A stretch of 64,000 bases of DNA. It comes from a virus. The DNA is taken from the IMG/VR virus record IMGVR_UViG_3300045988_174992. One strand, 5' to 3'. Of the stretch, positions 10,902 to 58,778 are shown piece by piece. The translations under genes and the position numbers were made by a program. The notes under the pieces are model-generated. The model searched no databases and was not told the DNA's origin. It was given only the letters and a program-made list of their open reading frames with translations. The stretch's first letter is position 1, and each line of letters starts with the position of its first letter.

Positions 10902-13900
10902 ATGGGTAATAAAATTCCATCTAGAGTATATGATACAAAAGGAAGAGTTGTAGATGTTGCATTCTCAATGAGAAGAAACACCAAGCAACCATTGGATGAA
11001 TCTTCTCTTCCTTTAAGTTATGATTCTTTAAAAGAAGAGATGAGGACTGGTACTTCATCTATATATAAGGGTCAAATTGTTGTAACTCAAGGACCTGAAA
11101 CAATACCAGAAGGAGAAAACCAATCATATTATTATACTCCTTTCCTAATAAAGAATGAAGGTAATAGTGATGTTTCTTATTATGCTGATAGAATCATGAC
11201 TGCTACTTATACTAATACGTTCTTAAATGGAGAATTTGTAAAGAAAAAGCAGTTAGGTACTTCATATACTGGTGTTGGTAAATGGCCAGATGCAACAGAA
11301 GATAGAGGTTCATTAGCTTACAATGAAATATTCAATGACTATAGTACTTATAGGATTACAAATAACCTTAAAGGTGAAACACCAATAATGTCTCATGTTG
11401 AAGGTAAGTCGAATACTTTAGCAGGATCTTTTACCCATATAGAAGGATATAACAATACTGGTGGTAGTGATTTTAGTCATGTAGAAGGAGCAAACAATAA
11501 TTCTTCTAACAATGCTTCTTATTCACATGTAGAAGGTGAATCAAATTCTGCAATAAATTCAAGCTATTCACATGTTGAAGGTCATTCAAACCAGGCAATA
11601 TCTGCAGCGGCTTCCCATGCTGGTGGTAGTAATTCTAAAGCACTTGGAAACAATGCATTTGTACATGGTACTAACTCTGTTGCTTTTGAAAATGCTATAG
11701 CTATAGGAAAATCAACTTATGCTAAAGCAGGATTTGCTACTGGTATTAATACATCATCTTATGGTATTGGTGCATTTGCAACTGGCAATAAGACAATAGC
11801 TAATGCTAATTATTCTGTTGCTGAAGGTGAAGGTTCTATATCTAATGGCCAAGGTTCTCATGCTGAAGGTAAAGAATCTAAAGCTTATGGTAAATATTCG
11901 CATGCTGAAGGATTTTCTGTTACTGGTTCATCTACAAATACAGATTTAGGATCCTATTCTCATGCAGAAAATAAGTCAACAGTATTAGGTACATATTCTC
12001 ATGCAGAAAACAATGCACAAATAACAGAAACCGCTAACTATGCTCATGCCGAAGGTAGTGGTAAAGCAATTGGTTCATTCTCTCATGTAGAAGGAACAAA
12101 CACTGTTACAACAGGTACTGGTGGCCACGCTGAAGGTATTGAAACCAATGCTTATGAATATAGTCATGCTGAAGGCAATTTCTCTTATGCAAAAGGTACT
12201 TATGCTCATGCTGAAGGTAATAGAACAATGTCAGCTGGAACAAGTACACATGCAGAAGGTACTTATACATCAGCTTATTCAATAGCTTCACATGCTGAAG
12301 GTGGATATGGCATGGCTAATTCAAATTATAGTCATGTTGAAGGTTATAAAACTTATGTTACTTCAAATGCTATAGGTGGACATGCCGAAGGTAATGGATC
12401 ATATACAACAGCAGAATATGCTCATGCTGAAGGTGTTGGTACTTATGCTTCTGGATCCGGATCACATGCTGAAGGTATAAGTACTCAATCTATAGGTCAA
12501 TCATCACATGCTGAAGGTAACACCACTATAGCAGAATCTACTTCAGCACATGCAGAAGGTGAGCGTACTAAAGCTATAGGGCAATCATCCCATGCTGAAG
12601 GTGTTTCATCTAATGCTGGTGGAATTGGATCACATGCTGAAGGTAATGGTACTTATGCTAATGGAGTATCATCACATTCACAAGGTGTATCAACTTATGC
12701 CAATGGAGAAGGATCATTTGCTAGTGGAAATAAGACAACAGCGCAATCTAATTTCTCTTCTTCATTTGGTGTATCAACTTATGCAAACGGAATTGGCTCT
12801 GTATCAGAAGGAAACAATACATCATCTTATGGAGAATTCTCACATTCATCTGGTGTTGGTACTATAGCAAGGGGATCTTACTCTTCTACTGATGGTTTCT
12901 ATACAGTATCTAAGAATAAGACAGAAGTTGGACATGGTACATATAATAGATCATATTATTCTGCTAATGGTTTCTTAGTAGAAAACAATGATACTAATAA
13001 GATTCCTAATGAATTTGCTCGTGTAAATAACAAATACTTACCAGGTAGATATCCTAATGGAATAGATGGTACTAATAATACAACATCTGTTGGTTTTTAT
13101 GAATCCAGTTATGAAACTATTTTCAGTATTGGAAATGGTGGAACTAGTGATACAACAAAAGGCCCTAGTGCTTTATATAAAAAGAAAATAGGTGAAACTA
13201 CTGAAAAGGAACCTATTTATAGTTATGCTGGTAATTATGTAAAAGAAAATTCACGCCATAACATTATGGATATTAGAAAGAATGGTCAGATGTATTATGA
13301 TGGAGGTATGATAATAGGTGGTGAAGTTGTTGCTCCAACATCATATAGCTATGTAAATTCATTAGGTCCAACTGCATATCTGACTACGGTTATGAGAGCT
13401 TTACTTGTACAACCTAAATATTACAGACCTAGTTTACAATATGCTATTTGGTATACTGGAAATAGGATTGCGAACGCAGTTACTTCTAGTGATAGTGTTG
13501 GATGGTCATATTTCCAAAATAGCCAGAATTCTGATGGTATTTGTGAAGTAGGTGCTACAACTAGTTTTGATATACAGTTTAGAGCATTTAATGTAGGTGT
13601 TGATAAACCACAAAACATAGACCCTATATATGGTACTTCATTAGGAAACATGTTGGGTTATTCTACTGGTATAAGGGAAATAACTTATTTTAAATTACCA
13701 GATGGGTCTAATATATCAGCACAAAAATTTGATAAAGTAATACATGATAAAGAATTGCTTGCTGGTATGAAAAGTGATACAGCTTATTATTGGCCTAAGA
13801 GATTAGTGGCAAACAATGAAGATGTTACAGATCCTAATTATATATATTTGAATGATACTGGAGCAAAAGACCCTTACCATAAATTCAATTGGGCACCTCC

Positions 13901-14866: not shown

Positions 14867-17800
14867 ATGGCAGTAAAACCAATAGGAACAACCGCACTTA
14901 CATGGGGTAGCTTGCTAGGTAGAGGTAACCGAGAACCAATTGATGCAACTCAATTGAATTATTCTTATACTGATCTCCTCTGGGAATTGAATCAAAGAAC
15001 AGTATCATATCAAATTGGTACAAATAATGGTGGATCAGGTAACTATTATGTTGGATTAATTACAGCGGTACCTTATGTAAATGAAGATGATAAAAGAAAA
15101 GATAGTCATTATACAGTAGATGCTAATGGTAATAAGAAATTAGAAACTATAAATATGAAAGGTCCTTGGTATGTATCTTATAAAGGTACAGACAAAGGAA
15201 GAGGTACTGCGAAAAATAAATATGGTTTTGTTCCTGATGGTAATCCTAATACATATTATGCAGATAGAATAGTACTTAAGCAAGAGATGGACTATACTCT
15301 TGATAATGGTTTTGTTCGTAAAACACAGCTTGGTACTTATTATACAGGTGTTGGTCATTGGTATGACAGCTATACTAAATCAAAAACTTATGCAAATGGT
15401 TTAGAATGTCCTGATGGTGTTTATTTTCCTACTACTTCTTATGCTGAAATATTCAATAACTATACATATAATGTAGCTACTGGTATATTTTCTCATGCCG
15501 AAGGTGGAAGTACTACGGCAAGTGGACATTCTTCACATGCTGAAGGTGGGGGTACTACGGCAAGTGGACATTCTTCACATGCTGAAGGAAACAATACTAC
15601 ATCAAGTGGAGGTAGTTCTCATGCTGAAGGAAAAAATACTAAGGCAAGTGGAAATGAATCTCATGCTGAAGGAGAAAACACCACAGCAAGTGGAGGTGGT
15701 TCTCATGCTGAAGGTATAAGTACTCAATCTATAGGTCAATCATCACATGCTGAAGGTACTTTATCTTATGCTGGTGGAAATGAATCTCATGCTGAAGGTA
15801 ATAATACTAAAGCTAATGGAGATAGTTCCCATGCTGAAGGTGGAAGTACTACAGCAAGTGCACATTATTCACATGCAGAAGGTTATAGTACTACAGCAAG
15901 TGGAGATTTTTCTCATGCCGAAGGTGGAGATACTACGGCAAGCGGAGATCATTCACATGCAGAAGGTTACTATACTAAAGCAAGTGGAAGTTGTTCTCAT
16001 GCTGAAGGTACTGGTACTACGGCAAGCGGAGATTATTCACATGCTGAAGGTCACTATGCTAAAGCAAGCGGAGATTATTCACATGCTGAAGGTCACTATG
16101 CTGAAGCAAGCGAAGATTATTCACATGCTGAAGGTGGAAGTACTACGGCAAGTGGATATTATTCACATGCTGAAGGTATTGGTACTACAGCAAGTGGATA
16201 TTATTCACATGCTGAAGGTTCTGGTACTACAGCAAGTGGATATTATTCACATGCTGAAGGTGATAGTACCAAGGCTACTGGATTTAGATCTCATGCTGAA
16301 GGTACTGGTACTACGGCAAGCGGAGATCATTCACATGCAGAAGGTGCTCTTACTACAGCAAGTGCACATTATTCACATGCTGAAGGTTATTCTACTTATG
16401 TACATAGTACTGCTGAAAACTCTCATGCTGAAGGTTTTGGATCTTACACTAACGGATTAAATGCACATGCAGAAAACAGTTCTTATGCAAATGGAAAGAA
16501 TTCACATTCTGGAGGTGAAGCAACTGCTGATGGGGTCAATTCATTTGCTCATGGTGTAAAAGGAACATTAGCTTCTGGGGTGAATAGTATAGCTTTAGTT
16601 TCTGGAACTGCATCAGGATCTAATTCTATTGCTTTTACCGGTACTGCTTCTGGTAATAGTTCTATATCTTTAGATGGTACAGCTTCTGGATCTAATTCTG
16701 TTTCTATACAAGGTACAGCTAAATCAACAGATAGTGTTGCTATTGGACAAGGTGCTATAGCAGAAACAGGCCAAGGTGCTATGGCTTTAATAAAAGGACA
16801 TGCTACTGGACAACAATCATTAGCTACTAATACAAGTTCTGCTTCAGGAACAAATTCCGTAGCTATGAATGTAAGTTCTGCTTCTAATACCCAATCATTT
16901 GCTGTAAATAATAGTACTGCTTCAGGTATAAATTCTGCATCAACCAATAAAGGTAATGCTTCTGGTGAAAATTCTATTTCTACCAATATAAGTACTGCAA
17001 CTGGAGTTAATTCTGCTGCTTTAAATAATGGTAATGCTTCTGGTGAGGGATCTGTTGCTATGAACTATAGTCAAGCTACTGGTAAAGGTAGTGTTGCTAT
17101 TGGTTTAAATACTATTGCATCTGGTGAATATTCACTTTCTCATGGTCATGAAACAAGAATTTCAGGAAATTATAGTGTAGGTTTAGGACAAGGAATAAAA
17201 GTTTCATCAAACACAAATGTTAGCACTGGTAAGTTTAATAAAGATGAAGCAAGCTACTTTGCTGTTGGTATTGGTATTTCTGATACAAATAGAAAGAATG
17301 CATTTTGGATTAGCCAGGGTACAACAGCTGGTACTAATGGGGTAAGTTATTTCAGTAACAATACTTATGTATATGGCAATACTTATGATCCAAGTCAATA
17401 TCCAAATAATAAAGAAGATAAGTCATGGTCAGTTGCAGTAACATATAATATGTACAGAAATAGCTATACTTATTTGTATAATACAATAGATGATAAATTT
17501 GCCACTTTTGGTACCGGAACATATTTTACTCATTCAATTGATGGATTGACTTATACTCCTACTACTAATGTATTCCATTGGAAAACACAAATATTTGATA
17601 AAGATAATAATATCTGGCCTAAACAATCATATTCTTTTACATTTACCCAAGCAAACCATACCAATGCAGGTGTAATGTCTGCTGAAGATAAGAGAAGATT
17701 AGATAGTATAAAGGGATTTACTTATGATAATGGTAATACCCATGAATACAATTTTAATGAAAATCATACAAAGGGTGATAATTTACATAGTTTCCATATA

Positions 17801-18160
17801 AATACAGATGGTACTATTGGATATACAGGATGGACACAAGGATTTAAATATACAAATAATGAAAGTACTGTAACATTATCATATACACATTATACAGGAA
17901 ATGATAGCAGTATAAATATACCAGTATTGAATGATGGTAATACTATTAACCAAGGATCTGCTAATGCTTCTAAGGCTGGTATAGTTACAGCAGATCAATA
18001 TAATAAGATTGTTTCTAGATTGACTTACCTTGAAAAATGGTGTATGTGGCAATCTGGATTACCTAACAACAAGTCTACTTATATTTGGTCAGGTACATTA
18101 GCACAATTTAATTCATTGACATCCAAACCAGAAAATACAACATTTATCATATCAAATTAA
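14867..18160 (+). CDS. tail fibre / adhesin 2 with SHAEG 14-aa repeat array and Hep_Hag-like NSVA(I/M) repeats (1097 aa)
   Basis: 21 consecutive exact-length 14-aa units SHAEGxxTxASGxx are followed by (G/N)SxSxxxxASG repeats. The C-terminus carries the motif YIWSGTLAQFNSL...NTTFIISN. Confidence 0.8.
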   Translation: MAVKPIGTTALTWGSLLGRGNREPIDATQLNYSYTDLLWELNQRTVSYQIGTNNGGSGNYYVGLITAVPYVNEDDKRKDSHYTVDANGNKKLETINMKGPWYVSYKGTDKGRGTAKNKYGFVPDGNPNTYYADRIVLKQEMDYTLDNGFVRKTQLGTYYTGVGHWYDSYTKSKTYANGLECPDGVYFPTTSYAEIFNNYTYNVATGIFSHAEGGSTTASGHSSHAEGGGTTASGHSSHAEGNNTTSSGGSSHAEGKNTKASGNESHAEGENTTASGGGSHAEGISTQSIGQSSHAEGTLSYAGGNESHAEGNNTKANGDSSHAEGGSTTASAHYSHAEGYSTTASGDFSHAEGGDTTASGDHSHAEGYYTKASGSCSHAEGTGTTASGDYSHAEGHYAKASGDYSHAEGHYAEASEDYSHAEGGSTTASGYYSHAEGIGTTASGYYSHAEGSGTTASGYYSHAEGDSTKATGFRSHAEGTGTTASGDHSHAEGALTTASAHYSHAEGYSTYVHSTAENSHAEGFGSYTNGLNAHAENSSYANGKNSHSGGEATADGVNSFAHGVKGTLASGVNSIALVSGTASGSNSIAFTGTASGNSSISLDGTASGSNSVSIQGTAKSTDSVAIGQGAIAETGQGAMALIKGHATGQQSLATNTSSASGTNSVAMNVSSASNTQSFAVNNSTASGINSASTNKGNASGENSISTNISTATGVNSAALNNGNASGEGSVAMNYSQATGKGSVAIGLNTIASGEYSLSHGHETRISGNYSVGLGQGIKVSSNTNVSTGKFNKDEASYFAVGIGISDTNRKNAFWISQGTTAGTNGVSYFSNNTYVYGNTYDPSQYPNNKEDKSWSVAVTYNMYRNSYTYLYNTIDDKFATFGTGTYFTHSIDGLTYTPTTNVFHWKTQIFDKDNNIWPKQSYSFTFTQANHTNAGVMSAEDKRRLDSIKGFTYDNGNTHEYNFNENHTKGDNLHSFHINTDGTIGYTGWTQGFKYTNNESTVTLSYTHYTGNDSSINIPVLNDGNTINQGSANASKAGIVTADQYNKIVSRLTYLEKWCMWQSGLPNNKSTYIWSGTLAQFNSLTSKPENTTFIISN
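15491..16462 (+). repeat. in-frame 42-nt tandem repeat array (about 23 units) inside fibre gene 2
   Basis: The unit tc(a/t)catgc(t/c/a)gaaggt + 27 nt runs as 21 exact 42-nt units over 15491..16372. Some neighbouring units are nearly identical, e.g. three GYYSHAEG units at about 16150-16260. Confidence 0.9.
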
Positions 18161-18168
18161 TATACCAA

Positions 18169-18197
18169 AGAGGAATTCAACAGAATTCCTCTTTTTA
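18169..18197 (+). terminator. intrinsic terminator
   Basis: AGAGGAATTC-aaca-GAATTCCTCT followed by TTTTTATTTTT. Confidence 0.75.
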
Positions 18198-18228
18198 TTT
18201 TTGTATAAGGAGATATTGAATTTAACGC

Positions 18229-18708
18229 ATGCCACTTAATTACGGATTAATAACAAAGAAACCTGAATTGGAATATAAATTTTCTGATGGTACAACAGAA
18301 ACTGTAAAAGATTTGTTAGTAAAAACATTTGACAATACAGTTGATTTTTCAAATGCTTATACTATAGTTGAAGTAACAAAAGAGTATATTGCTAGACCAG
18401 ACTTAGTGTCATTTGTTCTTTATCACACAGATGAATATGCCGATATATTATGTAAGATAAATGGAATATCAAATCCTTTTGAATTAACAGAAGGAAACAT
18501 ATTGATATGCCCAAGAGAAGAATTCATAAACAGGTTTTCAAAAGCTGTAAGTGACAATATGGATGGGCTAGCTTCTACATCCTCATCTTTACTTACTAGA
18601 AAACAATCATTCAAAAAGAATAAGGATGAAAAACGATCACCAAATGAAGCAACAGTATTTGACCATAATTATGTACAAGTTGGTGATACAAATTTATTGA
18701 TTTATTAA
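18229..18708 (+). CDS. LysM-like domain baseplate protein (P2 gpX / T4 gp53 class)
   Basis: YTIVEVTKEYIARPDLVSFVLYHTDEYADILCKINGISNPFELTEGNILICP fits the LysM-like pattern (v..GdtL..ia....g......i...N.i.....l..G..l.iP). Confidence 0.55.
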   Translation: MPLNYGLITKKPELEYKFSDGTTETVKDLLVKTFDNTVDFSNAYTIVEVTKEYIARPDLVSFVLYHTDEYADILCKINGISNPFELTEGNILICPREEFINRFSKAVSDNMDGLASTSSSLLTRKQSFKKNKDEKRSPNEATVFDHNYVQVGDTNLLIY

Positions 18709-24697: not shown

Positions 24698-24704
24698 ATA
24701 CAAA

Positions 24705-24733
24705 TGGGAAGAACTTAAGTTCTTCCCATTTTT
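24705..24733. terminator. bidirectional terminator between convergent genes
   Basis: Perfect palindrome TGGGAAGAACTT/AAGTTCTTCCCA followed by TTTTT. Confidence 0.7.
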
Positions 24734-25146: not shown

Positions 25147-26451
25147 TTAAAAATACGTTAAAAGGTAATTAGCAAAATCTTTACCATATACCTTTATCTT
25201 GTTTCTGTTCTTTACCGTTTCACATTTCTTTACCCATTCTAGAACTTTAATATAGTTCATGATTGTATTCTTAATGCAATCACTATCATCATAAGAACTA
25301 TCTAATGATGGACAATTGAAATTAGTTATGCTATTATGTTCTTTAGATGGGAAGTTGTTATACTTAATATACTCATTCAGAAATTCTATCAGCAAATCTA
25401 TCAAATCATAATTTGGATATTTAACATTATTTTCATTTACTGTCATCCAAGAATTGTAATATACTAAATCACCTAACATTATCTTCAACCATGAATCCAT
25501 GGCATCCTTATACTTTTCAAGACAACTCTTTTCACCTATATTAGATTTTCCATTCAATAGATTATATTGGTTAGTACAAGAATTACAAGTGGAAATAGTA
25601 GAAGGTAAATCAGTACCATCTGTACTGGTATTCATGATAGTCTGCAATAGTTTTGTTGCTTCATCGTTTTCATGATTAGCAAAATATTTCTGTACAGCAT
25701 CATATACATTATTAGGTACTGCTTGCTTGTTTTCTTCTGTTATAGCTGTATACTTCAATATTATTTTGAAGAAAGTTTGTGGAAAGAAATAGAAATCATC
25801 TTCTGTAAACTTTAGATCTGATATCTCATTCTTATTGAAGAAAAAATTCAAGTCAATACTTTTCTTTTCATCATCAGAAAGTTCTTCAAAATATGAAGTT
25901 ATATTTGGCTTATCATTTTCTCTATCGTAGAATAGATAATCAGGCAAGTATATGTCATCATCTTTTTCTGCTAATGACTGAATATCATTACCAGTATGGT
26001 CCTTTGTTCTAGTACACCATTTATATAAAGTTTCATTCAAATAATATTCTTTGCTTGGTCTGAAACCTTCTATACCTGTACCATAAACACTATTGTCTGT
26101 AAGTGCTTTAATCAAGAATTTTCCCAATTCTGAAGTACTATTAGATAGCAATTCTTTTGTAATTGGCACATATATTCTAGGCATGTCAAACTTGTTAGCG
26201 CCGCTATCCTCAAGCATCAGATACTTAGGACCTAAAACTTCACCTTCAACAAAGCCATCACCATATTCTAGTGTTATGTAATTTTCTTCAAACCATTTAA
26301 TACCCATTGCATTAATGCAAAGGAGATATTTTCCTCTGCAAGATTTAGGTATGCAAATATCATCTATGAACTTTACAACAAATGGTTGAAAATTATTTAA
26401 AAATGAATAATTCATGTTCGTATTTCTTTGGTTATTTAAAAATAGTTTCAT
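25147..26451 (-). CDS. hypothetical protein (434 aa; alternative start MNYSFLNNF at 26415)
   Basis: ORF track. Confidence 0.6.
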   Translation of the reverse strand: MKLFLNNQRNTNMNYSFLNNFQPFVVKFIDDICIPKSCRGKYLLCINAMGIKWFEENYITLEYGDGFVEGEVLGPKYLMLEDSGANKFDMPRIYVPITKELLSNSTSELGKFLIKALTDNSVYGTGIEGFRPSKEYYLNETLYKWCTRTKDHTGNDIQSLAEKDDDIYLPDYLFYDRENDKPNITSYFEELSDDEKKSIDLNFFFNKNEISDLKFTEDDFYFFPQTFFKIILKYTAITEENKQAVPNNVYDAVQKYFANHENDEATKLLQTIMNTSTDGTDLPSTISTCNSCTNQYNLLNGKSNIGEKSCLEKYKDAMDSWLKIMLGDLVYYNSWMTVNENNVKYPNYDLIDLLIEFLNEYIKYNNFPSKEHNSITNFNCPSLDSSYDDSDCIKNTIMNYIKVLEWVKKCETVKNRNKIKVYGKDFANYLLTYF

Positions 26452-26484
26452 AAGTTATAGTTCAATAGATGTTGAACAAAAATG

Positions 26485-26578
26485 TTCACACAGGGACGTT
26501 AAAATTATCTTAGCTGATAGAATATACTTCAGTATACTTTTACGCTCCCTGTGTGACCCAGGCACTTTATAGGGGAAC
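26485..26578. ncRNA. conserved 94-nt structured element, copy 1 (unknown class)
   Basis: 83/94 nt are identical to 57986..58079 while the flanks are unrelated. An 11-bp stem TCACACAGGGA/TCCCTGTGTGA closes a 49-nt interior, followed by a GC-rich tail ACCCAGGC...AGGGGAAC. Confidence 0.5.
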
Positions 26579-26585
26579 TTAATTA

Positions 26586-26972
26586 TTATCGTACAGAAAT
26601 AATCAATTTATCCTTCTTTGCAATTTCAAAAGCTTCTTTCATCCCCTTTTCAAATGTACCATTATTAACTGAACTACCAGAGCATAAATGTGAAATGATG
26701 ATATCTAGTTGAATGAGGGCTTCTGGAGATGGAATTACATACTTCCATTTTCCATCATACTTGATTACCATCTTAGTTGCATTTGATTTCTGAGCATCCT
26801 GAACAAATTTGAACATTGATACCCAGTATTCAGTATTTTCCTGAGATTCAAGATCCATGATAGGCATATTTTCTGTATCAATGTTCTTTACAAAATATGT
26901 AGGAGTGTTGGCAAATGACATAACAGATACTACACAGAAAATAAAAGTAACAAAAAACTTCTTCATAATCAT
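26586..26972 (-). CDS. secreted small protein (signal peptide MIMKKFFVTFIFCVVSVMSFA)
   Basis: ORF track; hydrophobic N-terminal h-region followed by an A-x-A-like site. Confidence 0.6.
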   Translation of the reverse strand: MIMKKFFVTFIFCVVSVMSFANTPTYFVKNIDTENMPIMDLESQENTEYWVSMFKFVQDAQKSNATKMVIKYDGKWKYVIPSPEALIQLDIIISHLCSGSSVNNGTFEKGMKEAFEIAKKDKLIISVR

Positions 26973-27032: not shown

Positions 27033-27061
27033 AATATAGAACAAACATAAAAAATTTCAAA
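27033..27061 (-). promoter_or_regulatory. minus-strand promoter motif copy C
   Basis: Plus strand reads AATATAGAAC-aaacataaaaa-ATTTCAAA, upstream of 26972. Confidence 0.65.
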
Positions 27062-27833: not shown

Positions 27834-27841
27834 ATACAAAA

Positions 27842-27865
27842 AATGGAATCCTATAGGATTCCATT
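27842..27865. terminator. bidirectional terminator (24-nt perfect palindrome)
   Basis: AATGGAATCCTA/TAGGATTCCATT is flanked by an A-run and a T-run. It overlaps the stop of the minus-strand gene. Confidence 0.65.
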
Positions 27866-28747
27866 TTGCTTATCTAAATATTTGTTTATGTTTCTTTCTA
27901 ATTTATAAGGTTCTATCATCTTATAAATATCTTCTTTAGTCCAATATTCCATTTTGAAATCTCCAGAATCTATTATTTCTTTCCATCCTTTTCTATAACT
28001 ATTTATCATTAATCTAGCTTCTAGAATTTTTACTTCTTCTGGATATTTGTAATGTTCTGAATGAATTCCTTCCCATAAAGTTTCTGCAGAGTTGAAATGG
28101 CTTCTATCACCATCATCAAAAACCATATTTACTATTTCATCAACATTCGTTGTAATGAATTTGTTTGATATTACTTCAAATGTATCAACATTAAATATTG
28201 TCTGATATAATCCTGTTGGAACAAATCTGAATGAACCCATTTGATTCTTTGACAAATCCACTCCATTCAATCTCTCTTTTGTATGGTTCAATATAGTATT
28301 TGCCCACATAATCTTTACCCCAACTTTATACTTTGATTCATCTTTTCTATAATCAGGACAGTAATATCTAAATTCAGTGTATTCTTTATCTTTCATCATC
28401 ATGAAGTCAACTGCGGCAAACTTTAGCTTATCATCATCCAATGGGTCTTTATAAGGATACAATATAGATACAATGAAATAAGATTTGCTTGTAACACTTT
28501 CTGTATAAGAGAATACTTTGCTTATCATTGCTTCCAACTCTTCTATAGTATCAGTTTTTATAGCAATATCTATATCTCCATTGTATTCACCATCTTTCTT
28601 CTTACCTATTGATCCAATGCAACAATATTCCATATCGGGATAATTATCCAACAATTCTTTTATAACTAATTGTTGCAATAATGGGGCAACTTCTGATTTG
28701 ATTGGGGTTGCCCTATATTTTCCTTGTTGAAATAGATTTCCACTCAT
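27851..28747 (-). CDS. Pol-beta-superfamily nucleotidyltransferase (298 aa)
   Basis: IGSIGKKKDGEYNGDIDIAI matches G-S-x(11)-D-x-D. A downstream strand, AAVDFMMM, could supply the third carboxylate. Confidence 0.55.
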   Translation of the reverse strand: MSGNLFQQGKYRATPIKSEVAPLLQQLVIKELLDNYPDMEYCCIGSIGKKKDGEYNGDIDIAIKTDTIEELEAMISKVFSYTESVTSKSYFIVSILYPYKDPLDDDKLKFAAVDFMMMKDKEYTEFRYYCPDYRKDESKYKVGVKIMWANTILNHTKERLNGVDLSKNQMGSFRFVPTGLYQTIFNVDTFEVISNKFITTNVDEIVNMVFDDGDRSHFNSAETLWEGIHSEHYKYPEEVKILEARLMINSYRKGWKEIIDSGDFKMEYWTKEDIYKMIEPYKLERNINKYLDKQNGIL

Positions 28748-35174: not shown

Positions 35175-35183
35175 TTAAAACAT

Positions 35184-35274
35184 TCACCAGGATGGCGGAT
35201 AATTCAATCACCTGATAAATTATACTTATTAGCAATTATCCGCTCCCTGCGCATCCCAGCCGCCATCCTGGTGA
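35184..35274. terminator. GC-rich nested inverted repeat at the TerL / membrane-protein convergence
   Basis: A 15-bp arm TCACCAGGATGGCGG (35184-35198) pairs with CCGCCATCCTGGTGA (35260-35274). An inner pair GCGGATAATT/AATTATCCGC lies at 35195-35204 and 35234-35243. Confidence 0.5.
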
Positions 35275-35672
35275 TTGCTTTGCTTATTCATTACATCTAA
35301 TATCTTATTGTATTCTTCATCTGTAACATTTATGATAATATCATCATTTGTTCCAAATTTTCCATCAGAACCAGGAAGTTTATGTTCATATTTTTCTGAC
35401 CACACTTTTGTCAAACCAACAGAAGTGAAAACAGCTGCTACTGCTGTTATATAAGCTGCCATTGCTGTCAAATCCGTAGTTATGGTATGATTATACCAAG
35501 CTTCTATAGTAAGAGAGAATATTGGTACAGCAAGCAGTAAAGTACCAATGAATGTAACAACAACTAAAAAGAAACTTTTGCTGCTATATCCTGAATTTTG
35601 CTGAACAAGCTTACTGAAGAAATTTCCTTTTACTATTTTCTTTATATATACGGTCATTTTAGAAAAGTCCAT
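35229..35672 (-). CDS. membrane protein with two predicted TM helices (holin-like by topology only)
   Basis: FFLVVVTFIGTLLLAVPIFSLTI and AMAAYITAVAAVFTSVGLT. Confidence 0.5.
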   Translation of the reverse strand: MDFSKMTVYIKKIVKGNFFSKLVQQNSGYSSKSFFLVVVTFIGTLLLAVPIFSLTIEAWYNHTITTDLTAMAAYITAVAAVFTSVGLTKVWSEKYEHKLPGSDGKFGTNDDIIINVTDEEYNKILDVMNKQSNHQDGGWDAQGADNC

Positions 35673-37220: not shown

Positions 37221-37222
37221 AG

Positions 37223-37295
37223 AGCCATTAACCGGGTATGATCCGATAACCTTCTGTTTACAAAACAGATGCTCTACCAATTGAGCTATAATGGC
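37223..37295 (-). tRNA. tRNA-Thr(UGU)
   Basis: Acceptor GCCATTA/TAATGGC, D-arm GCTC-AATTGGT-AGAGC, anticodon stem TCTGT/ACAGA with loop TTTGTAA. T-loop ATCATAC is non-canonical. Confidence 0.8.
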
Positions 37296-37437
37296 ATATA
37301 AAATCAAATATGGCATCAGATGTGCAAACTATCATGACCATATTCTAGTAATACATTGAGCTATCAGGAGTACCCGTAGATTGCACTGACACCTCTAACA
37401 ACTGCCTAGTTAAATGCTAGGTCCTCTCTATTACTTG

Positions 37438-37511
37438 TGGAGATGATGGAGTATGATTCCATATAATCTGTCTTGCAAGGACAGTGCTCTATCCATTTAA
37501 GCTACATCCCC
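37438..37511 (-). tRNA. tRNA-Ala(UGC)
   Basis: Acceptor GGGGATG/CATCTCC with G3:U70, loop CTTGCAA, T-loop ATCATAC. Confidence 0.85.
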
Positions 37512-37706
37512 ATTTCTAGTACTTATTCATTGTACTAAAATATATTCTGTAGCGAATTATATGCAGAATAATATTTTATATATGTACAATGAAGTAAGGT
37601 TGGCAGGTACTAGAACCTTCAAGTGATTAGCTTGACCATATCCATTTTGAGTAGCGTTCAAAATCAAAGATTTATCACGCCGCCTCTAAATAATCGTTGC
37701 CGTTTG

Positions 37707-37779
37707 CTGGCACCCTGGGACTCGAACCCAGGACCTTGAACTTAACGGGTTCCTGCTCTACCAACTGAGCTAAGCACCA
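37707..37779 (-). tRNA. tRNA-Asn(GUU), atypical
   Basis: D-arm GCTC-AGTTGGTA-GAGC, T-arm CTGGG-TTCGAGT-CCCAG, loop CCGTTAA (C at position 33). The acceptor stem needs three G:U pairs. Confidence 0.6.
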
Positions 37780-37810
37780 ATCAATTCTTCACAGTGAATT
37801 ACTCTGTTAG

Positions 37811-37892
37811 TGATGGGTGTGGGAGTCGAACCCACTATTGTACGGCTTATGAGACCGACGTGATTTATAAATATCCGTTTCACTCACCCACG
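37811..37892 (-). tRNA. tRNA(CAU), Met/initiator-like, with 16-nt D-loop
   Basis: T-arm GTGGG-TTCGACT-CCCAC, loop CTCATAA, D-stem GTGA/TCAC enclosing AACGGATATTTATAAA, and a C1xC72 mismatch. Confidence 0.5.
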
Positions 37893-37908
37893 ATATATAG
37901 TTAACTAT

Positions 37909-38934
37909 TTAAATAATAGTATTTTCTTTTAAATATTTCAAGAATTCATTAAATTTTTCTTTAACAAAATTTTTATTTGCCTTCCCCATATCTTTTATAA
38001 TATAAGGTGTCCAACCACATTCTTCAATTTCTTTTATCTTTATTTTATCCCTATTTTGTGTTTGTTTAACAGAATGTGATTTTGTAATTTGTTTATAATG
38101 CCATGGGCCATTCCATAATACCGCAAATTTTATATCTTCTATTATTATATCTGCATCCCATCCATTAAATATACATTCATTATGTTTAATATTATTAAAA
38201 TATTCTTCACATAATTTACAGAATTCAATTTCATTTTTACTACGTCTTAAATCACCTTGATGTTGTATTCCTTTGCAACCACCATTATGTAAACCTAACC
38301 AACTTTCTTTAGAAAATAATTTACCATTGATATAATGATATCCCTTTAATTTTAATTTTTCAATTTCTTTATTTCGTTTATCTTCTAATTCTTTTAATTG
38401 GGATAAATTCAATAATTCCCTTTTAATTATTTCTATTTTCTTTGTTAGTTTTTTATATTCATAATATTCATCATCTATTTTATTAGAATTATGTACCTTA
38501 TTTATGTGTTTTGGTTTACATTCATCACACATACAAGTTTTTATTGATGCTCTTGATGATATTGTTATTTCTTTACCACATTCAATGCATTTCGCTTGTT
38601 TAGTATTTCCTGTAGATAATTTTCCTACATAAGAATGTGAACATTCAAGACTACAAAAATATTTTTTATTTATGTCAAATTTATTTTGTCTTTCCTTAAT
38701 TTTAAATTCTTTTCCACAATTAAAACATTTTACATTATATTCTAATAGTGGATTTTTTCTTTGATATGCAATTTGTAATGCTATGCCAGAATTTTTTGAA
38801 CATTTAGCAACACGTTCATCAGTTTCATTTGTAAGGCCTGAATTCCACATTAATTTATGGTTTGGATTCATTTTACAATATTTTTCATGTTGCTTTACAT
38901 TTTTATATTCTTTATTGCAATATCTACATTCCAT
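37909..38934 (-). CDS. free-standing homing-endonuclease candidate: N-terminal Cys-rich zinc-ribbon repeats plus C-terminal Vsr/DUF559-like PD-(D/E)xK domain
   Basis: CRYCNKEY...HEKYC, CFNCGKEF...CSLECSH and CIECGKE...CMCDEC clusters. C-terminus GWDADIIIEDIKFAVLWNGPWHYK...QNRDKIKIKEIEECGWTPYIIKD. Embedded in the tRNA island. Confidence 0.55.
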   Translation of the reverse strand: MECRYCNKEYKNVKQHEKYCKMNPNHKLMWNSGLTNETDERVAKCSKNSGIALQIAYQRKNPLLEYNVKCFNCGKEFKIKERQNKFDINKKYFCSLECSHSYVGKLSTGNTKQAKCIECGKEITISSRASIKTCMCDECKPKHINKVHNSNKIDDEYYEYKKLTKKIEIIKRELLNLSQLKELEDKRNKEIEKLKLKGYHYINGKLFSKESWLGLHNGGCKGIQHQGDLRRSKNEIEFCKLCEEYFNNIKHNECIFNGWDADIIIEDIKFAVLWNGPWHYKQITKSHSVKQTQNRDKIKIKEIEECGWTPYIIKDMGKANKNFVKEKFNEFLKYLKENTII

Positions 38935-38944
38935 AATTTTAATG

Positions 38945-38973
38945 ATTGTCAGACTACTTGGCAGTCTGACAAT
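38945..38973 (-). promoter_or_regulatory. 11-bp stem hairpin 11 nt upstream of the endonuclease start codon
   Basis: ATTGTCAGACT-acttggc-AGTCTGACAAT. Confidence 0.4.
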
Positions 38974-39149
38974 TTGTATGTTATTTCAAAGAATTTTCGG
39001 GGCCGAGGCATGTCCTTAAGTACCATCGTATGGGACATTTTATCAGTTTCTCCTAATCTTCAACGTGCTATATTATGAGGTAGCGCTACTTCTCTTTTCA
39101 ACGTTCCATGAACTAGTATACTCCCTGGTACGGACTCGATGTTTAATTG

Positions 39150-39223
39150 TACTCCAGGAGGGACTTGAACCCCCGACCACTTGGGTATAAGCCGAGCACT
39201 CTAACCAACTGAGTTACTGGAGT
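39150..39223 (-). tRNA. tRNA-Ile(UAU)
   Basis: Acceptor ACTCCAG/CTGGAGT, T-arm GGGGG-TTCAAGT-CCCTC region, loop CTTATAC. One C:A mismatch in the anticodon stem. Confidence 0.75.
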
Positions 39224-39237
39224 ATTTATTTATATTA

Positions 39238-39268
39238 AATATAGAACAACTATATCCAAAATTTCAAA
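39238..39268 (-). promoter_or_regulatory. minus-strand promoter motif copy D (internal to the tRNA island, spacer 13)
   Basis: Plus strand reads AATATAGAAC-aactatatccaaa-ATTTCAAA. Confidence 0.55.
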
Positions 39269-39276
39269 GAATTTTG

Positions 39277-39350
39277 TAGGTGGTATAGGACTTGAATCTA
39301 TGACCTCTTGCTTATCAGGCAAGCTATCTAACCAACTGATATAACCACCT
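39277..39350 (-). tRNA. tRNA-Ile(GAU)
   Basis: Acceptor AGGTGGT/ACCACCT, loop CTGATAA, T-arm ATAGA-TTCAAGT-CCTAT. Confidence 0.85.
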
Positions 39351-39356
39351 AAATTG

Positions 39357-39428
39357 TTGGACCACGGAGGTTCGAACTCCGAATGACAGAACCAAAATCT
39401 GTAGTGTTTCCAATTACACCATAGTCCA
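39357..39428 (-). tRNA. tRNA-Gln(UUG)
   Basis: Acceptor TGGACTA/TGGTCCA, loop TTTTGGT, T-arm CGGAG-TTCGAAC-CTCCG. Confidence 0.85.
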
Positions 39429-39437
39429 ATTTATTTG

Positions 39438-39514
39438 CGGAGCATAAGGGACTCGAACCCTTAGTTTTACTAGAGTGACAGTCTAGTTCCCTTACCAACA
39501 GGGCTTAATACTCC
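39438..39514 (-). tRNA. tRNA-Asp(GUC)
   Basis: Acceptor GGAGTAT/ATGCTCC, anticodon arm CTAGA-CTGTCAC-TCTAG, T-arm AAGGG-TTCGAGT-CCCTT. The D-arm and variable region are slightly irregular. Confidence 0.7.
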
Positions 39515-39663
39515 CAATACTGATTAAAGTCTCAGTTAGCTGCACATCAATCTCCTATGTGGCTTTTGCAATAACTTTAGTTGCAAGCAACATAAAGCGT
39601 TGATTATATCTAAATTGCTCACACATCACTTTGTCATGATTTTCATTTGTTCTTTTGACCCAG

Positions 39664-39746
39664 TGGGCAGAGAGAGATTCGAACTCCCGAAGGCCGAAGC
39701 CATTTGATTTACAGTCAAACCATTTTAACCACTTATCTATCTACCC
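39664..39746 (-). tRNA. tRNA-Tyr(GUA), long variable arm
   Basis: Acceptor GGGTAGA/TCTGCCC, loop CTGTAAA, variable arm TGGCTTCGGCCTTC, T-arm GGGAG-TTCGAAT-CTCTC. Confidence 0.85.
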
Positions 39747-39757
39747 AATTTTATTAG

Positions 39758-39829
39758 TAGCCGCAGCGAGAATCGAACTCGCCTTGACAGATCGAAAATC
39801 TGTAGTACTAACCACTATACGATACGGCC
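39758..39829 (-). tRNA. tRNA-Glu(UUC)
   Basis: Acceptor GGCCGTA/TGCGGCT, arm ACAGA-TTTTCGA-TCTGT, T-arm GCGAG-TTCGATT-CTCGC. Confidence 0.85.
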
Positions 39830-39951
39830 ATTTAGTACACCCTTATTCCATTCTGCAGCAATGGGAATGTACAAGGTCAGTAGGTTGACCAGCCTCCATA
39901 TTGGTTTATTTAAGAGAACCAACGTTAAACTGTTTTGATTAAACTCTTTCG

Positions 39952-40022
39952 TGCCAGAAGTGAGAATCGAACTCGCCTTGACAGATCGAAATCTGTAGTA
40001 CTAACCACTATACGATACTGGC
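39952..40022 (-). tRNA. tRNA-Glu paralog with 6-nt anticodon loop (anticodon-less tRNA-like RNA or pseudogene)
   Basis: The body is identical to tRNA-Glu except for a 1-nt deletion in the anticodon loop (ACAGAT-TTCG-ATCTGT), one T-stem change and a remodelled acceptor stem GCCAGTA/TTCTGGC. Confidence 0.6.
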
Positions 40023-40032
40023 ATTCAAATTA

Positions 40033-40224
40033 TTATTTTTGACATAATTGCTTGATCTTATTCTTAATTCTTTCTAGTGTTACACTAGATTCCTCATTAA
40101 ATTGATCAGTATCAATAACTGCATCTATTACCATAAGCAATTGCATGAATCTCATATCTGGAAACATCCAGGCAAATTGCTTTGTAATATCCAATATCTT
40201 AATGTTTGCTTCTAATCTTGTCAT
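40033..40224 (-). CDS. hypothetical 63-aa protein
   Basis: ORF track; preceded by promoter copy E. Confidence 0.5.
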   Translation of the reverse strand: MTRLEANIKILDITKQFAWMFPDMRFMQLLMVIDAVIDTDQFNEESSVTLERIKNKIKQLCQK

Positions 40225-41901: not shown

Positions 41902-41908
41902 AAATTAG

Positions 41909-57941: not shown

Positions 57942-57970
57942 GAGCTCTGATTTAAATCAGAGCTCTTTTT
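57942..57970 (+). terminator. intrinsic terminator at the convergence point
   Basis: GAGCTCTGATTT/AAATCAGAGCTC followed by TTTTT. Confidence 0.8.
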
Positions 57971-57985: not shown

Positions 57986-58079
57986 TTCACACAGGAACGT
58001 TTAAATTGTCTTAGCTGATAGAACATACTGAAGTATATTTTTACGCTACCTGTGTGACCCAGGCGCTTAACAGGGGAAC
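57986..58079. ncRNA. conserved 94-nt structured element, copy 2
   Basis: 88 percent identical to 26485..26578. It starts 28 nt 3' of the stop of minus-strand gene 58107..58778. Confidence 0.5.
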
Positions 58080-58106
58080 CTAGGGAATTTAACTTAAGTT
58101 CTTGAA

Positions 58107-58778
58107 CTAATCACCAAGCCATTTCCAATATTTGAAAAAGAGATTCATTCCTTCTTCATAATCTTCATGGTCTTTTAATATTTTTTCTAATTCATCTGGT
58201 TTGTCATCTCCATGCAACAAATTTATTGTTCTTAAATCTTCAATGCAATCATTGTCGCAATTGATATACAAACGGAATGCCTTACAAATCTTTTCAAGAA
58301 TCTCTTTCCACTCATATTCATTCTTTAAGAAACCAGGATACCCAGCGAAAGTTTTCTTCAATCTTTCAATACGTGGAAGAACGAACTTTGCAATAGTAAG
58401 GTCAAGATTCCACACTTCAGAATCATCAAATCCACATTCCAATCTCTGTTTTGTAAACTTATCCCATTTTGGATGATCTGGACTAATTAATGAAAAGTTT
58501 ACATTATTGATACCATAAGGATCCTTAGATTCAAGCTTTGGAAGATTACCAGTATATTTGAACCAACCATTTTCATCATCAAATTTGAAGTGCATGATAC
58601 CAATACGTGCATCACCACCTTTTACGGTATTGATATAATCAGATGTCCAATTAGGAGCACTAGTACTTTTCTTCCATTCAACAATATTCTTAATTTCAAA
58701 ATTGAAACTACCTACTGTTACAATACCACCGTAATTGAAAAATTCATCAGGGTATAATTCATCGTATATTACTTTCAT
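58107..58778 (-). CDS. hypothetical protein (223 aa)
   Basis: ORF track. Confidence 0.6.
   Translation of the reverse strand: MKVIYDELYPDEFFNYGGIVTVGSFNFEIKNIVEWKKSTSAPNWTSDYINTVKGGDARIGIMHFKFDDENGWFKYTGNLPKLESKDPYGINNVNFSLISPDHPKWDKFTKQRLECGFDDSEVWNLDLTIAKFVLPRIERLKKTFAGYPGFLKNEYEWKEILEKICKAFRLYINCDNDCIEDLRTINLLHGDDKPDELEKILKDHEDYEEGMNLFFKYWKWLGD

What the first reader, a model, noticed from the sequence alone, without database searches (positions are those of the whole stretch)
26485..26578. Conserved 94-nt structured element present twice (copy 1), candidate novel ncRNA or 3'-UTR module
26485..26578 and 57986..58079 are 83/94 nt identical with no indels, while their flanks and neighbouring genes are unrelated. 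An 11-bp stem, TCACACAGGGA / TCCCTGTGTGA, encloses a 49-nt interior. The interior contains the invariant CTTAGCTGATAGAA and a small hairpin, ATACT-nn-AGTAT, whose loop differs between copies (tc versus ga). A GC-rich tail follows: ACCCAGGC(A/G)CTT(T/A)A(T/C)AGGGGAAC.

Both copies sit directly 3' of minus-strand genes, 8 and 28 nt after the stop codons at 26586 and 58107. The GC content is far above the local background. I could not match the element to any RNA class I know; hammerhead and twister were considered and do not fit.
Basis: seen in the sequence. Interest (0 to 1): 0.7.

Follow-up and report, generated by a model that had tools for sequence, protein, structure and literature searches.

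The report
Repeated terminator-like hairpin cassette in gut phage
The 94-base element is one copy of a dispersed family (three in this window, about a dozen per genome) of hairpin modules placed right after genes in a large uncultivated human-gut T4-like phage; it most likely stops transcription and marks points of gene reshuffling, and is not a free-standing RNA gene.

Summary
Copies 26485-26578 and 57986-58079 are 83/94 identical with unrelated flanks. A third, diverged copy lies at 35183-35276.

The element belongs to a family of at least 11-13 copies per ~293-kb genome. It occurs only in one human-gut jumbo T4-like phage lineage.

Read on the window's minus strand, each copy starts 0-7 nt (sometimes up to ~60) after a stop codon. 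It has a short variable "tail", often a CCAGG-N6-CCTGG hairpin. A near-invariant G+C-rich core follows and forms the 5' arm of a long hairpin. A T-run comes next, and often an early or late promoter.

A sister lineage has the same architecture at seven or more orthologous sites, with completely different but still complementary stems. At two orthologous junctions the element alternates with an ordinary hairpin-plus-T-run terminator.

The orientation bias (17 of 21 loci) and the excess of G·U pairs point to a minus-strand RNA.

Best reading: a sequence-conserved composite terminator and 3'-end cassette, like T4-type PeSLs and mycobacterial TRIT, homogenised by recombination and sitting at synteny breakpoints.

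Two things are unexplained. The core is more conserved than pairing requires, and the loop carries a conserved TATA-like motif. A lineage-specific binding factor remains possible.

The parts
26485..26578 (-). Copy 1 of the element (locus class A). It lies between the 128-aa gene (26972-26586) and the 434-aa gene.
   Evidence: covariance model 103 bits over 26475-26578 on the minus strand.
26557..26578 (-). Copy 1 'tail' (minus-sense GTTCCCCTATAAAGTGCCTGGG). This is the type-2 tail, without the CCAGG/CCTGG hairpin. It begins 7 nt after the stop codon.
26543..26556 (-). Copy 1 conserved core, the 5' arm of the long hairpin P1 in gene sense (TCACACAGGGAGCG).
   Evidence: Near-invariant in more than 70 distinct copies.
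26499..26542 (-). Copy 1 interior loop, A+T-rich, with the conserved AGTATAWW motif (plus strand AATATACT, about 26521-26528).
   Evidence: the motif is shared with family B.
26485..26498 (-). Copy 1 3' arm of P1 in gene sense (CGTCCCTGTGTGAA).
26475..26484 (-). T-run after P1 (minus-sense CATTTTTGTT).
   Evidence: At least 4 T in the 8 nt after P1 in 74 of 83 distinct family rows, against a background of 0.29.
26433..26445 (-). Late-promoter-like motif CTATTTTTAAATA ahead of the probable true start (ATG at 26417-26415) of the 434-aa gene.
   Evidence: The relative's protein aligns only from residue 16.
57986..58079 (-). Copy 2 (locus class B). It lies 3' of the 223-aa minus gene and is convergent with the 88-aa plus gene.
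   Evidence: 101.4 bits.
57942..57965 (.). Ordinary bidirectional hairpin terminator GAGCTCTGATTTAAATCAGAGCTC, 20 nt from copy 2.
58088..58107 (.). TTAACTTAAGTTCTTGAAC motif between the stop codon and copy 2. It is related, in inverted orientation, to the 39-nt unit that follows the element at other loci.
35183..35276 (-). Copy 3, diverged. The 3' arm pairs with the tail (CACCAGGATGGCGG/CCGCCATCCTGGTG) instead of the core. The first 48 nt are read as the C-terminus of the 147-aa ORF 35672-35229. It is convergent with the 933-aa terminase-like gene.
   Evidence: (I18). The position is orthologous to family-B locus L396.
27033..27060 (-). Early sigma-70-like promoter TTGAAAT-N14-GTTCTATATT driving the 128-aa gene that ends at copy 1. 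Other members are at 3070-3097, 3600-3627, 44625-44652 and 59845-59872.
   Evidence: (D8/D11).

Best explanation
The element is a sequence-conserved, composite transcription-terminator and mRNA 3'-end cassette of a jumbo T4-like gut phage. Its functional strand is the window's minus strand.

Mechanism:
1. RNA polymerase leaving a gene transcribes, 0-7 nt (in some loci up to ~60 nt) after the stop codon, a short tail. In many copies the tail is a 5-bp CCAGG-N6-CCUGG hairpin.
2. It then transcribes a G+C-rich core that pairs with a downstream arm across a ~30-49-nt A+U-rich interior. This gives a 13-20-bp interrupted hairpin (-24 to -47 kcal/mol with flanks).
3. A U-run follows directly. The hairpin plus U-run releases the transcript, insulates the next unit and leaves a stable 3' hairpin.
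4. In co-directional loci the next gene's own early (TTGAAAT-N14-GTTCTATATT) or late-type (ATTTTTAAATA) promoter follows. The unit 'stem-loop + promoter + gene' therefore resembles the PeSL cassettes of T4-type phages.
5. The ~12 copies share 25-90 nt of near-identical sequence, so they exchange segments by homologous recombination. This gives concerted evolution, and the copies act as linkers at which gene modules are swapped.

Shown: copy number, placement, orientation bias, hairpin plus T-run, replacement of the stems in the sister lineage, mosaic exchange, synteny breaks, and alternation with plain terminators.

Inferred: that termination actually happens, and that recombination at the element caused the rearrangements.
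For: 1. Family and distribution.
- There are 158 hits and 112 distinct sequences, only in one phage lineage from human gut, with at least 11 exact-core copies per ~293-kb contig.
- Exactly three copies lie in the window, all on the minus strand.

2. Placement.
- In about 45 of 55 copies the tail side abuts the end of a co-directional gene.
- No copy lies between divergent genes.
- 10 of 12 family-A locus classes and 7 of 9 family-B loci are in gene sense.

3. Hairpin plus T-run.
- At least 4 T in the 8 nt after P1 in 74 of 83 rows, against 0.29 background.
- Folding z-scores range from about -1 in degenerate-arm copies to -8 in the best hairpins.

4. Sister family B.
- It has the same geometry: CCAGG..CTGGG hairpin, a stem at the same place, GAAA, a TATAAATTATA loop, ATTTT, a 3' arm and an A/T run.
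- Its stems are unrelated in sequence: CGCTGGCGGCC/GGCCGCCAGCG.
- It sits at seven or more orthologous junctions.

5. The hairpin is kept by other means when P1 is lost.
- Class K has a new 13-bp upper stem.
- Copy 3 pairs the tail with the 3' arm.
- In classes B and C, with degenerate arms, a canonical bidirectional terminator lies 14-25 nt away.

6. Slot equivalence.
- At junction L340 (equivalent to window 18160-18229), lineage A has a plain terminator where lineage B has the element.
- After the topoisomerase gene, lineages A and B have the element and a more distant relative has a plain terminator.

7. Strand. There are 75 G·U cells in gene sense, against 26 that would be G·U in antisense.

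8. Promoters follow the element in classes F, G, H, I, A and in B loci.

9. Recombination.
- Interior and tail variants are shared between different loci of different genomes.
- The A-versus-B synteny break lies exactly at the element.
Against: - There are no expression data, so termination is inferred.
- The interior of 30-49 nt is far larger than the 3-8-nt loops of canonical intrinsic terminators. The phage does use canonical terminators elsewhere.
- The core is more conserved than its pairing partner, which a plain hairpin does not require.
- The loop carries a conserved TATA-like motif of unknown role.
- About 4 of 21 loci carry the element in antisense orientation, where no U-run follows the hairpin.
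- Some family-B copies are followed by AAATTT rather than a clean T-run.
- Within-family covariation is no better than shuffles on the pair-type measures.
Confidence: 0.55

Rival explanations
1. The element is a factor-dependent regulatory RNA site, not a passive terminator. A lineage-specific phage protein recognises the conserved tail-hairpin plus core in the nascent RNA. It then switches termination off (as at lambda N/nut, or as BglG/SacY proteins do at RAT sites overlapping a terminator arm), or processes or stabilises the mRNA there (as at the repeated RNase III sites of T7).
For: - The core is near-invariant while its partner arm varies, so conservation exceeds the need for pairing.
- All copies of a lineage share one core and the sister lineage has another at orthologous sites, as expected for co-evolution with a trans factor.
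- The wobble bias favours a gene-sense RNA.
- In type-2 tails and in family B, the tail can pair with the core: CCCUGU:ACAGGG and CGCCAG:CUGGCG. This overlaps the terminator arm.
- The authors of TRIT drew the same inference for a sequence-conserved terminator (PMC3152330).
Against: - No candidate protein was found. The flanking genes have no informative families.
- The tail:core alternative pairing is not maintained across tail variants.
- About 40% of family-A copies lack the small hairpin.
- Recombinational homogenisation could explain part of the uniformity.
Confidence: 0.17
2. The element is a DNA-level site, with the hairpin potential secondary. The core would be a recognition sequence for a recombinase, HUH-type nuclease or other DNA-binding protein. 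The elements would then act as cassette boundaries or REP/attC-like recombination sites, or as cruciforms. This would parallel Neisseria uptake sequences, which double as terminators when inverted.
For: - Sequence-specific conservation of one arm.
- Three copies of a related ~17-nt unit in mixed orientations: the tail is TTCACCAGGATGGCG-like and the core is GTCACACAGGGAGCGG. Tails occur in both orientations.
- Both orientations occur relative to genes.
- Synteny breaks and mosaic exchange occur at the element.
- A 39-nt unit is inserted 1-4 times exactly at the element's end in three different loci.
- The pattern of lineage-specific sequence with conserved structure, right after stop codons, recalls chromosomal integron attC (VCR) and REP/RAYT (own knowledge).
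Against: - The 17:4 orientation bias toward gene sense and the 75:26 wobble asymmetry are not expected for a purely DNA-level site.
- There are no target-site duplications.
- There are no empty sites within the lineage.
- Positions are stable between lineages whose flanking proteins are 52-86% identical.
- No recombinase or HUH gene was seen next to any copy.
Confidence: 0.15
3. The element carries a promoter inside the hairpin loop. The loop motif TATAWWTTATA...CCGAACAAA resembles the -10 and initial region of the phage's early promoters. A GCGGAAA/GCGAAAT box lies 11-12 nt upstream, the spacing of a T4 MotA-type middle promoter. Transcripts starting in the loop would lack the 5' arm and read through, while upstream transcripts terminate.
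For: - The loop motif is conserved in families A and B and is similar to the early-promoter consensus.
- The geometry from the core to the motif is fixed at 30 nt in both families.
- PmSL cassettes with middle promoters are known in T4-like phages (PMC4122927).
Against: - About 10 of 21 loci are convergent and have no co-directional downstream gene.
- Loci with a downstream gene have their own separate promoter.
- The 11-12-nt spacing is wrong for sigma-70, and there is no TG extension.
- The A+T-rich loop makes TATA-like strings cheap. TATAAATW is not enriched in the window.
Confidence: 0.06
4. The element is a free-standing small non-coding RNA gene or ribozyme.
For: It has a stable fold, is multi-copy and has no Rfam match.
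Against: - There is no dedicated sense promoter.
- Copies start at stop codons.
- The interior is variable and mosaic.
- Some copies have degenerate stems.
- Copy 3 overlaps a coding end.
- The core has no exact match in 185,579 bacterial and archaeal species genomes apart from two bins that carry this phage. It is therefore not identical to any host CRISPR repeat there.
Confidence: 0.04

Closest known systems
PeSL / PmSL cassettes of T4-type phages (Arbiol et al. 2010, PMC2839356; Comeau et al. 2014, PMC4122927)
   Same: - Occur in the T4 superfamily.
- Repeated, conserved intergenic stem-loops lie between a stop codon and the next gene's promoter.
- Thought or shown to terminate upstream transcription.
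- Located at indel and exchange points.
- Their authors also wondered whether the conserved stem is a protein target.
   Different: - PeSL stems are short, simple G(n)-loop-C(n) or A3-4G3-loop-C3T3-4 hairpins fused to a sigma-70 promoter in one unit.
- Here the stem-loop is a ~95-nt composite with a 25-nt invariant core, a 30-49-nt interior with a conserved motif, and a modular tail.
- The promoter is a separate module, present in only part of the loci.
- Copies also flank core genes such as topoisomerase and a terminase-like gene.
TRIT, the sequence-conserved terminator motif of Mycobacterium (Gardner et al. 2011, PMC3152330)
   Same: - Many dispersed copies with both sequence and structure conserved.
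- A narrow position relative to the stop codon.
- Restricted to one lineage.
- Its conservation suggested an extra binding factor.
   Different: - TRIT is bacterial, largely palindromic and bidirectional.
- It overlaps the stop codon at about -8 and lacks a large interior.
- No sequence similarity to this element.
REP/BIME elements and their RAYT transposases; chromosomal integron attC (VCR) sites (own knowledge)
   Same: - Species-specific imperfect palindromes at gene 3' ends.
- Mosaic arrangement of units in alternating orientation.
- Concerted evolution within a genome.
   Different: - No RAYT or integrase gene was seen.
- The orientation and wobble bias indicate an RNA-level constraint.
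- Positions are stable over long divergence.
Lambda nut sites and RAT/terminator pairs of BglG/SacY antiterminators (own knowledge)
   Same: - A small conserved hairpin immediately upstream of, or overlapping, a terminator arm.
- Sequence-specific conservation on the 5' side only.
   Different: - Those occur in 5' leaders, once or twice per genome, and have known protein partners.
- Here there are about 12 sites at 3' ends and no known partner.
RNase III processing sites of phage T7 (own knowledge)
   Same: - About ten similar interrupted hairpins in intergenic regions.
- They leave protective 3' hairpins on the mRNAs.
   Different: - T7 sites are not followed by U-runs.
- They show much lower sequence identity to one another.
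- Cleavage was not testable here.

Membership tests
PeSL (promoter-early stem-loop) cassette | Host genome is a T4-type myovirus. | tested here: met
   The portal matches phrog_213 (E=3e-75). The best relatives are Sphingomonas phage PAU, Tenacibaculum PTm1, huge phages and Lak phages at 29-37% identity. There is a weak T4-type terminase hit. The relationship to T4 is distant.
PeSL (promoter-early stem-loop) cassette | Intergenic stable stem-loop just upstream of the cassette's own promoter, downstream of the previous stop codon. | tested here: met
PeSL (promoter-early stem-loop) cassette | A sigma-70-like early promoter is an integral, adjacent part of every element. | tested here: not met
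   TTGAAAT-N14-GTTCTATATT follows only in classes F, G, H and I and in some B loci. Class A has a late-type motif. Convergent loci (B, C, K, copy 3) have none.
PeSL (promoter-early stem-loop) cassette | Short simple stem (poly-G/poly-C type) with a small loop. | tested here: not met
   The hairpin is 13-20 bp and interrupted, with a 30-49-nt interior, plus a tail module.
PeSL (promoter-early stem-loop) cassette | Sits at insertion, deletion or exchange points between related genomes. | tested here: met
   The synteny break between lineages A and B lies at the element. Mosaic exchange occurs among copies. That recombination caused these changes is inferred.
Intrinsic (factor-independent) terminator | G+C-rich hairpin immediately followed by a U-run on the transcribed strand. 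| tested here: met
   This holds in gene-sense copies. It is not met for the roughly 4 of 21 loci in antisense orientation.
Intrinsic (factor-independent) terminator | Compact hairpin with a loop of a few nucleotides. | tested here: not met
   The tool's terminator scan, which allows loops of 3-8 nt, does not call the element. The interior is 30-49 nt.
Intrinsic (factor-independent) terminator | Transcripts end there. | not testable with these tools
   No transcriptome data were available.
MITE-like mobile repeat | Target-site duplications and presence/absence polymorphism among close relatives. | tested here: not met
   Flank repeats are no more frequent than in shuffled flank pairs. There are no empty sites in 1.2 Mb of related loci. 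Positions are conserved between lineages.
Any Rfam family (including hammerhead, twister, HDV-like ribozymes and riboswitches) | A covariance-model match. | tested here: not met
   Nothing at the gathering threshold over the whole window. Nothing relevant at E up to 10 in 26400-26650.
CRISPR-repeat mimic (RNA anti-CRISPR / solitary repeat unit) | Near-identity to a CRISPR repeat of a cellular genome. | tested here: inconclusive
   The 22-nt degenerate core has exact matches only in two MAG bins that carry this phage's contigs. Only exact matches were searched.
REP/RAYT or integron attC | An associated HUH transposase or integron integrase gene. | not tested
   Only flanking genes were screened, and none had such domains. 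The whole genome was not available.

The most novel reading that the evidence does not exclude
The elements are addresses for an unidentified, lineage-specific trans-acting factor. The near-invariant core and small hairpin would be bound as nascent RNA (or as DNA), so that about a dozen terminators across the genome are switched together. This would be a genome-wide, nut/RAT-like antitermination or processing regulon at gene 3' ends. The core sequence would co-evolve with the factor, which would explain why orthologous sites in two lineages carry entirely different but internally uniform stems.
Probability: 0.2. Interest if true: 0.75.

Novelty: new variant of a known kind. Interest (0 to 1): 0.45.

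Why it matters
The element would extend the idea of conserved terminator/promoter cassettes as insulators and recombination linkers. That idea is known from a few cultured T4-type phages. Here it would apply to an uncultivated ~293-kb human-gut phage lineage, in a much more elaborate form.

The form has a 25-nt invariant core, a modular tail, and a conserved loop motif. It shows concerted evolution at orthologous sites.

Practical uses:
- It gives a signature for recognising this phage lineage. It also flags phage contigs that appear to be mis-binned into 'Romboutsia' MAGs.
- It gives landmarks for transcription-unit boundaries.
- It gives a concrete RNA or DNA bait for finding a possible new termination or antitermination factor.

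Tried and rejected
- **Rfam.** Both the gathering and the permissive scans found nothing at the element.
- **Cultured phages.** blastn against the cultured-phage collection found no match.
- **Loose 14-mer scan.** CTTAGCTGATAGAA in viral contigs returned mostly chance hits.
- **Architecture pattern.** CCAGG..TGGG..TATAWWTTATA found only families A and B.
- **Protein-guided search from the 434-aa gene.** It found only the two lineages.
- **The search for homologous proteins.** The call timed out.
- **crAss-like phage.** Rejected; the portal is T4-type.
- **Diversity-generating retroelement repeat pair.** Rejected; differences between the copies are not adenine-specific.
- **Coding for a peptide.** Rejected; reading frames through the element are not conserved between copies. 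In family B the ATG-led frames end at different places. In family A the frame is closed by TAA in typical copies.
- **T4-type late promoter TATAAATA in the loop.** Rejected; this phage's late genes carry CAATTTTTAAATA instead, and TATAAATW is not enriched.
- **Conserved tail:core alternative pairing.** It is not maintained across variants.
- **Resemblance of CAGCTAAGA(T)AA / CCTAAGAAAA to the type I-F CRISPR repeat handle.** Judged to be chance: there is no matching stem, it rests on own knowledge, and the hosts are unlikely.

Full report
**1. Observation**

Window 26485-26578 and 57986-58079 align without gaps at 83/94 identity. Similarity ends within a few bases on both sides.

Copy 1 has the 11-bp stem TCACACAGGGA/TCCCTGTGTGA around 49 nt. 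Copy 2 has an A·A mismatch in that stem.

The copies have G+C of 0.40 and 0.42, against about 0.30 around them. Both fold better than shuffles on either strand, with z-scores of -2.8 to -4.2.

The shared 16-mer is expected 0.02 times per window.

Both copies lie 7 and 27 nt beyond the stop codons of minus-strand ORFs.

No Rfam family matches.

**2. It is a family**

A scan of IMG/VR for the 16-mer returned about 55 true copies. They lie in eight related contigs of 167-294 kb from one dataset.

A 22-nt degenerate core found further copies in two places:
- human-gut metagenome contigs, including OBAD01000001.1 (294,491 bp, the same length as IMG/VR contig 171958 and probably the same sequence) and a 292,457-bp contig, each with at least 11 hits;
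- two MAG bins labelled Romboutsia, which evidently contain this phage's contigs.

A profile built from the copies finds 158 hits and 112 distinct sequences in 1.2 Mb of fetched loci. It also finds a third, diverged copy in the window at 35183-35276.

A covariance model run with filters off finds exactly these three copies, all on the minus strand.

Parts of the element never occur alone.

The phage is a distant T4-like jumbo phage. Its portal matches phrog_213, and the nearest cultured relatives are about 33% identical. The window also holds 25 tRNA genes.

**3. Anatomy (gene sense, which is the window's minus strand)**

From 5' to 3':

(a) A variable tail.
- Type 1 is ATTCnCCAGG-N6-CCTGGG, a 5-bp hairpin.
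- Type 2 is GTTCCCCTGTTAAGCGCCTGGG, without that hairpin.
- Other variants exist, including inverted ones.

(b) A near-invariant core, GCGCCTGGGTCACACAGGGAGCGGAA.

(c) An A+T-rich interior of about 30 nt, or 49 nt counting weak pairs. It is mosaic but centred on AGTATAWW(TTATA).

(d) A 3' arm complementary to the core.

(e) A T-run.

These features are documented.

The tail resembles the core, so the element is built from three copies of a ~17-nt unit.

**4. Placement**

The copies fall into about 12 orthologous intergenic loci per genome.
- In about 45 of 55 copies the tail abuts the end of a co-directional gene, usually 0-7 nt away.
- The other side is either the next co-directional gene or a convergent gene.
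- No copy lies between divergent genes.
- Two locus classes (D and J) carry the element inverted.

After the T-run many loci show the phage's early promoter TTGAAAT-N14-GTTCTATATT. This is the same motif as window repeats D8/D11. Class A, which includes copy 1, shows a late-type motif ATTTTTAAATA instead.

At least 4 T occur in the 8 nt after the hairpin in 74 of 83 distinct rows, against a background of 0.29.

**5. Sister family**

A relative whose 421-aa protein is 55% identical to the window's 434-aa protein has a different-sequence element with the same layout at the orthologous spot:

AGATGMCGCCAGGRGTCG-CTGGGCGCCGCTGGCGGCCGCGAAAT-..CTCAGACTATAAATTATAT..-ATTTTAAGGCCGCCAGCGTC-AAATTT

At least 12 copies occur in four contigs of that lineage.

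Features shared with family A:
- the CCAGG..CTGGG hairpin;
- 30 nt from that hairpin to the loop motif;
- GAAA and ATTTT at the base of the loop;
- the TATAAATTATA-like motif;
- an A/T-run after the 3' arm.

The long stem is entirely different, yet complementary.

Seven of nine family-B loci are in gene sense.

Flanking-protein comparison shows seven or more junctions that carry an element in both lineages. One of them corresponds to window copy 3. The elements are therefore old residents whose sequence has changed in concert within each lineage.

**6. RNA or DNA, and which strand**

Within family A the core is too invariant for strong covariation. Percent paired (81%) beats the shuffled and slid controls, but the pair-type measures do not.

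Single-sided changes are informative. There are 75 G·U cells in gene sense, against 26 that would be G·U on the other strand. These include 22 CCAGG-to-CUAGG changes in the small hairpin.

Together with the 17:4 orientation bias, this favours a minus-sense RNA. The cells are not phylogenetically independent, so this evidence is moderate.

**7. What it most likely does**

Three lines point to termination or 3'-end formation.

(i) The geometry is stop codon, then hairpin, then T-run.

(ii) A strong hairpin is preserved by different means when the canonical pairing is lost.
- Class K gains a 13-bp upper stem.
- Copy 3 pairs the tail with the 3' arm.
- The classes with degenerate arms (B and C) sit 14-25 nt from an ordinary bidirectional terminator.

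(iii) The element and plain terminators occupy the same slot.
- At the junction equivalent to window 18160-18229, lineage A has GAGGAATTC-N4-GAATTCCTC plus a T-run where lineage B has its element.
- After the topoisomerase gene, lineages A and B have elements and a ~53%-identical relative has a plain terminator.

**8. Recombination**

Two observations match the role proposed for PeSL cassettes in T4-type phages (PMC2839356 and PMC4122927).
- Interior and tail variants are shared among different loci in different genomes.
- The synteny break between the lineages lies exactly at the element. The 615-aa and 421-aa genes are adjacent across one element in lineage B. In lineage A they are separated, and each keeps an element.

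There are no target-site duplications and no empty sites within the lineage. A MITE-like history is therefore not supported.

**9. What remains unexplained**

- The core is conserved beyond what pairing needs. It stays invariant even where it is unpaired (class K).
- The loop motif is conserved across both families. It resembles the -10 and initial region of the phage's early promoters.
- However, the upstream GAAA box is only 11-12 nt away, and about half of the loci have no gene downstream. A promoter role is therefore unlikely.
- The interior is much larger than a normal terminator loop.

These points keep two alternatives open: a lineage-specific RNA- or DNA-binding factor, as was suggested for the sequence-conserved TRIT terminators of mycobacteria (PMC3152330), and a DNA-level recognition role.

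**10. Comparison and verdict**

The element works like a PeSL stem-loop or a TRIT. It is not a member of either. It fails the PeSL criteria of an integral sigma-70 promoter and a short simple stem, and it shares no sequence with TRIT.

It is best filed as a new, elaborate variant of the known kind 'conserved, dispersed terminator/insulator cassette'.

Confidence in the terminator-cassette reading is 0.55, and interest is 0.45. The more novel reading, a factor-addressed regulon of switchable terminators, has a probability of about 0.2.

Noticed in passing
window 37222-44466, minus strand: An array of 25 tRNA genes covers most amino acids. One (39951-40022) has an irregular anticodon loop that ARAGORN cannot assign. 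The Lys-type tRNA at about 44189-44277 carries a 14-nt insertion in the D-loop region of the Rfam alignment.
   Followed up: no
window 3070-3097, 3600-3627, 27033-27060, 44625-44652, 59845-59872 (all minus strand); possibly 60999-61026: A family of sigma-70-like early promoters, TTGAAAT-N14-GTTCTATATT(ATAT..GAACAAAA), lies upstream of minus-strand gene clusters. The repeat finder detects it as repeats D8/D11.
   Followed up: partly
window 3670, 36301, 44988 (+); 967, 26445 (-): A late-promoter-like motif (CTAAATTG-N6-8-)CAATTTTTAAATA lies 20-40 nt upstream of structural (plus-strand) genes and of the 434-aa gene. It replaces the T4 consensus TATAAATA.
   Followed up: partly
L056, L006, L047, L027, L009 (after the element); related motif at window 58088-58107: A 39-nt unit, TAACTTTAGTTCTTGAACAGAACTGAAAGAGATGTTCAT, is inserted in 1-4 tandem copies exactly at the hairpin end of the element in three different loci. 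It contains a 6-bp hairpin AGTTCT/AGAACT. Copy number differs between closely related genomes.
   Followed up: partly
window 11500-12700 and 15400-16460: Long arrays with 42-nt (14-aa) periodicity, '..SHAEG..', lie inside the 1292-aa and 1097-aa plus-strand ORFs. These are probably fibre or tail-spike-like repeat proteins.
   Followed up: no
window 35229-35276: The 147-aa minus-strand ORF reads 48 nt into element copy 3, giving the C-terminus ..NHQDGGWDAQGADNC*. In the sister lineage the orthologous gene stops 3 nt before the element.
   Followed up: partly
L288-L301 (CALFLM01 and CALESE01 'uncultured Romboutsia sp.' MAGs): Two CONCOCT bins labelled Romboutsia contain many contigs (5-99 kb) that carry the element with this phage's flanks. 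This is either mis-binning of a low-G+C phage or a host hint. Weak Shine-Dalgarno usage in the window argues against a Firmicutes host.
   Followed up: partly
window 24702-24731, 27840-27867, 57942-57965, about 18176-18210: Perfect palindromic hairpins with T-runs on both sides act as ordinary bidirectional terminators. They show that the phage also uses canonical terminators.
   Followed up: partly
window 56801-57646: A 281-aa ORF has a Pro/His/Cys-rich centre (PPHHYHPLPPPPPDCGCHDDCRCHD..) and a C-terminal TDGT x4 repeat. It has no family match.
   Followed up: no
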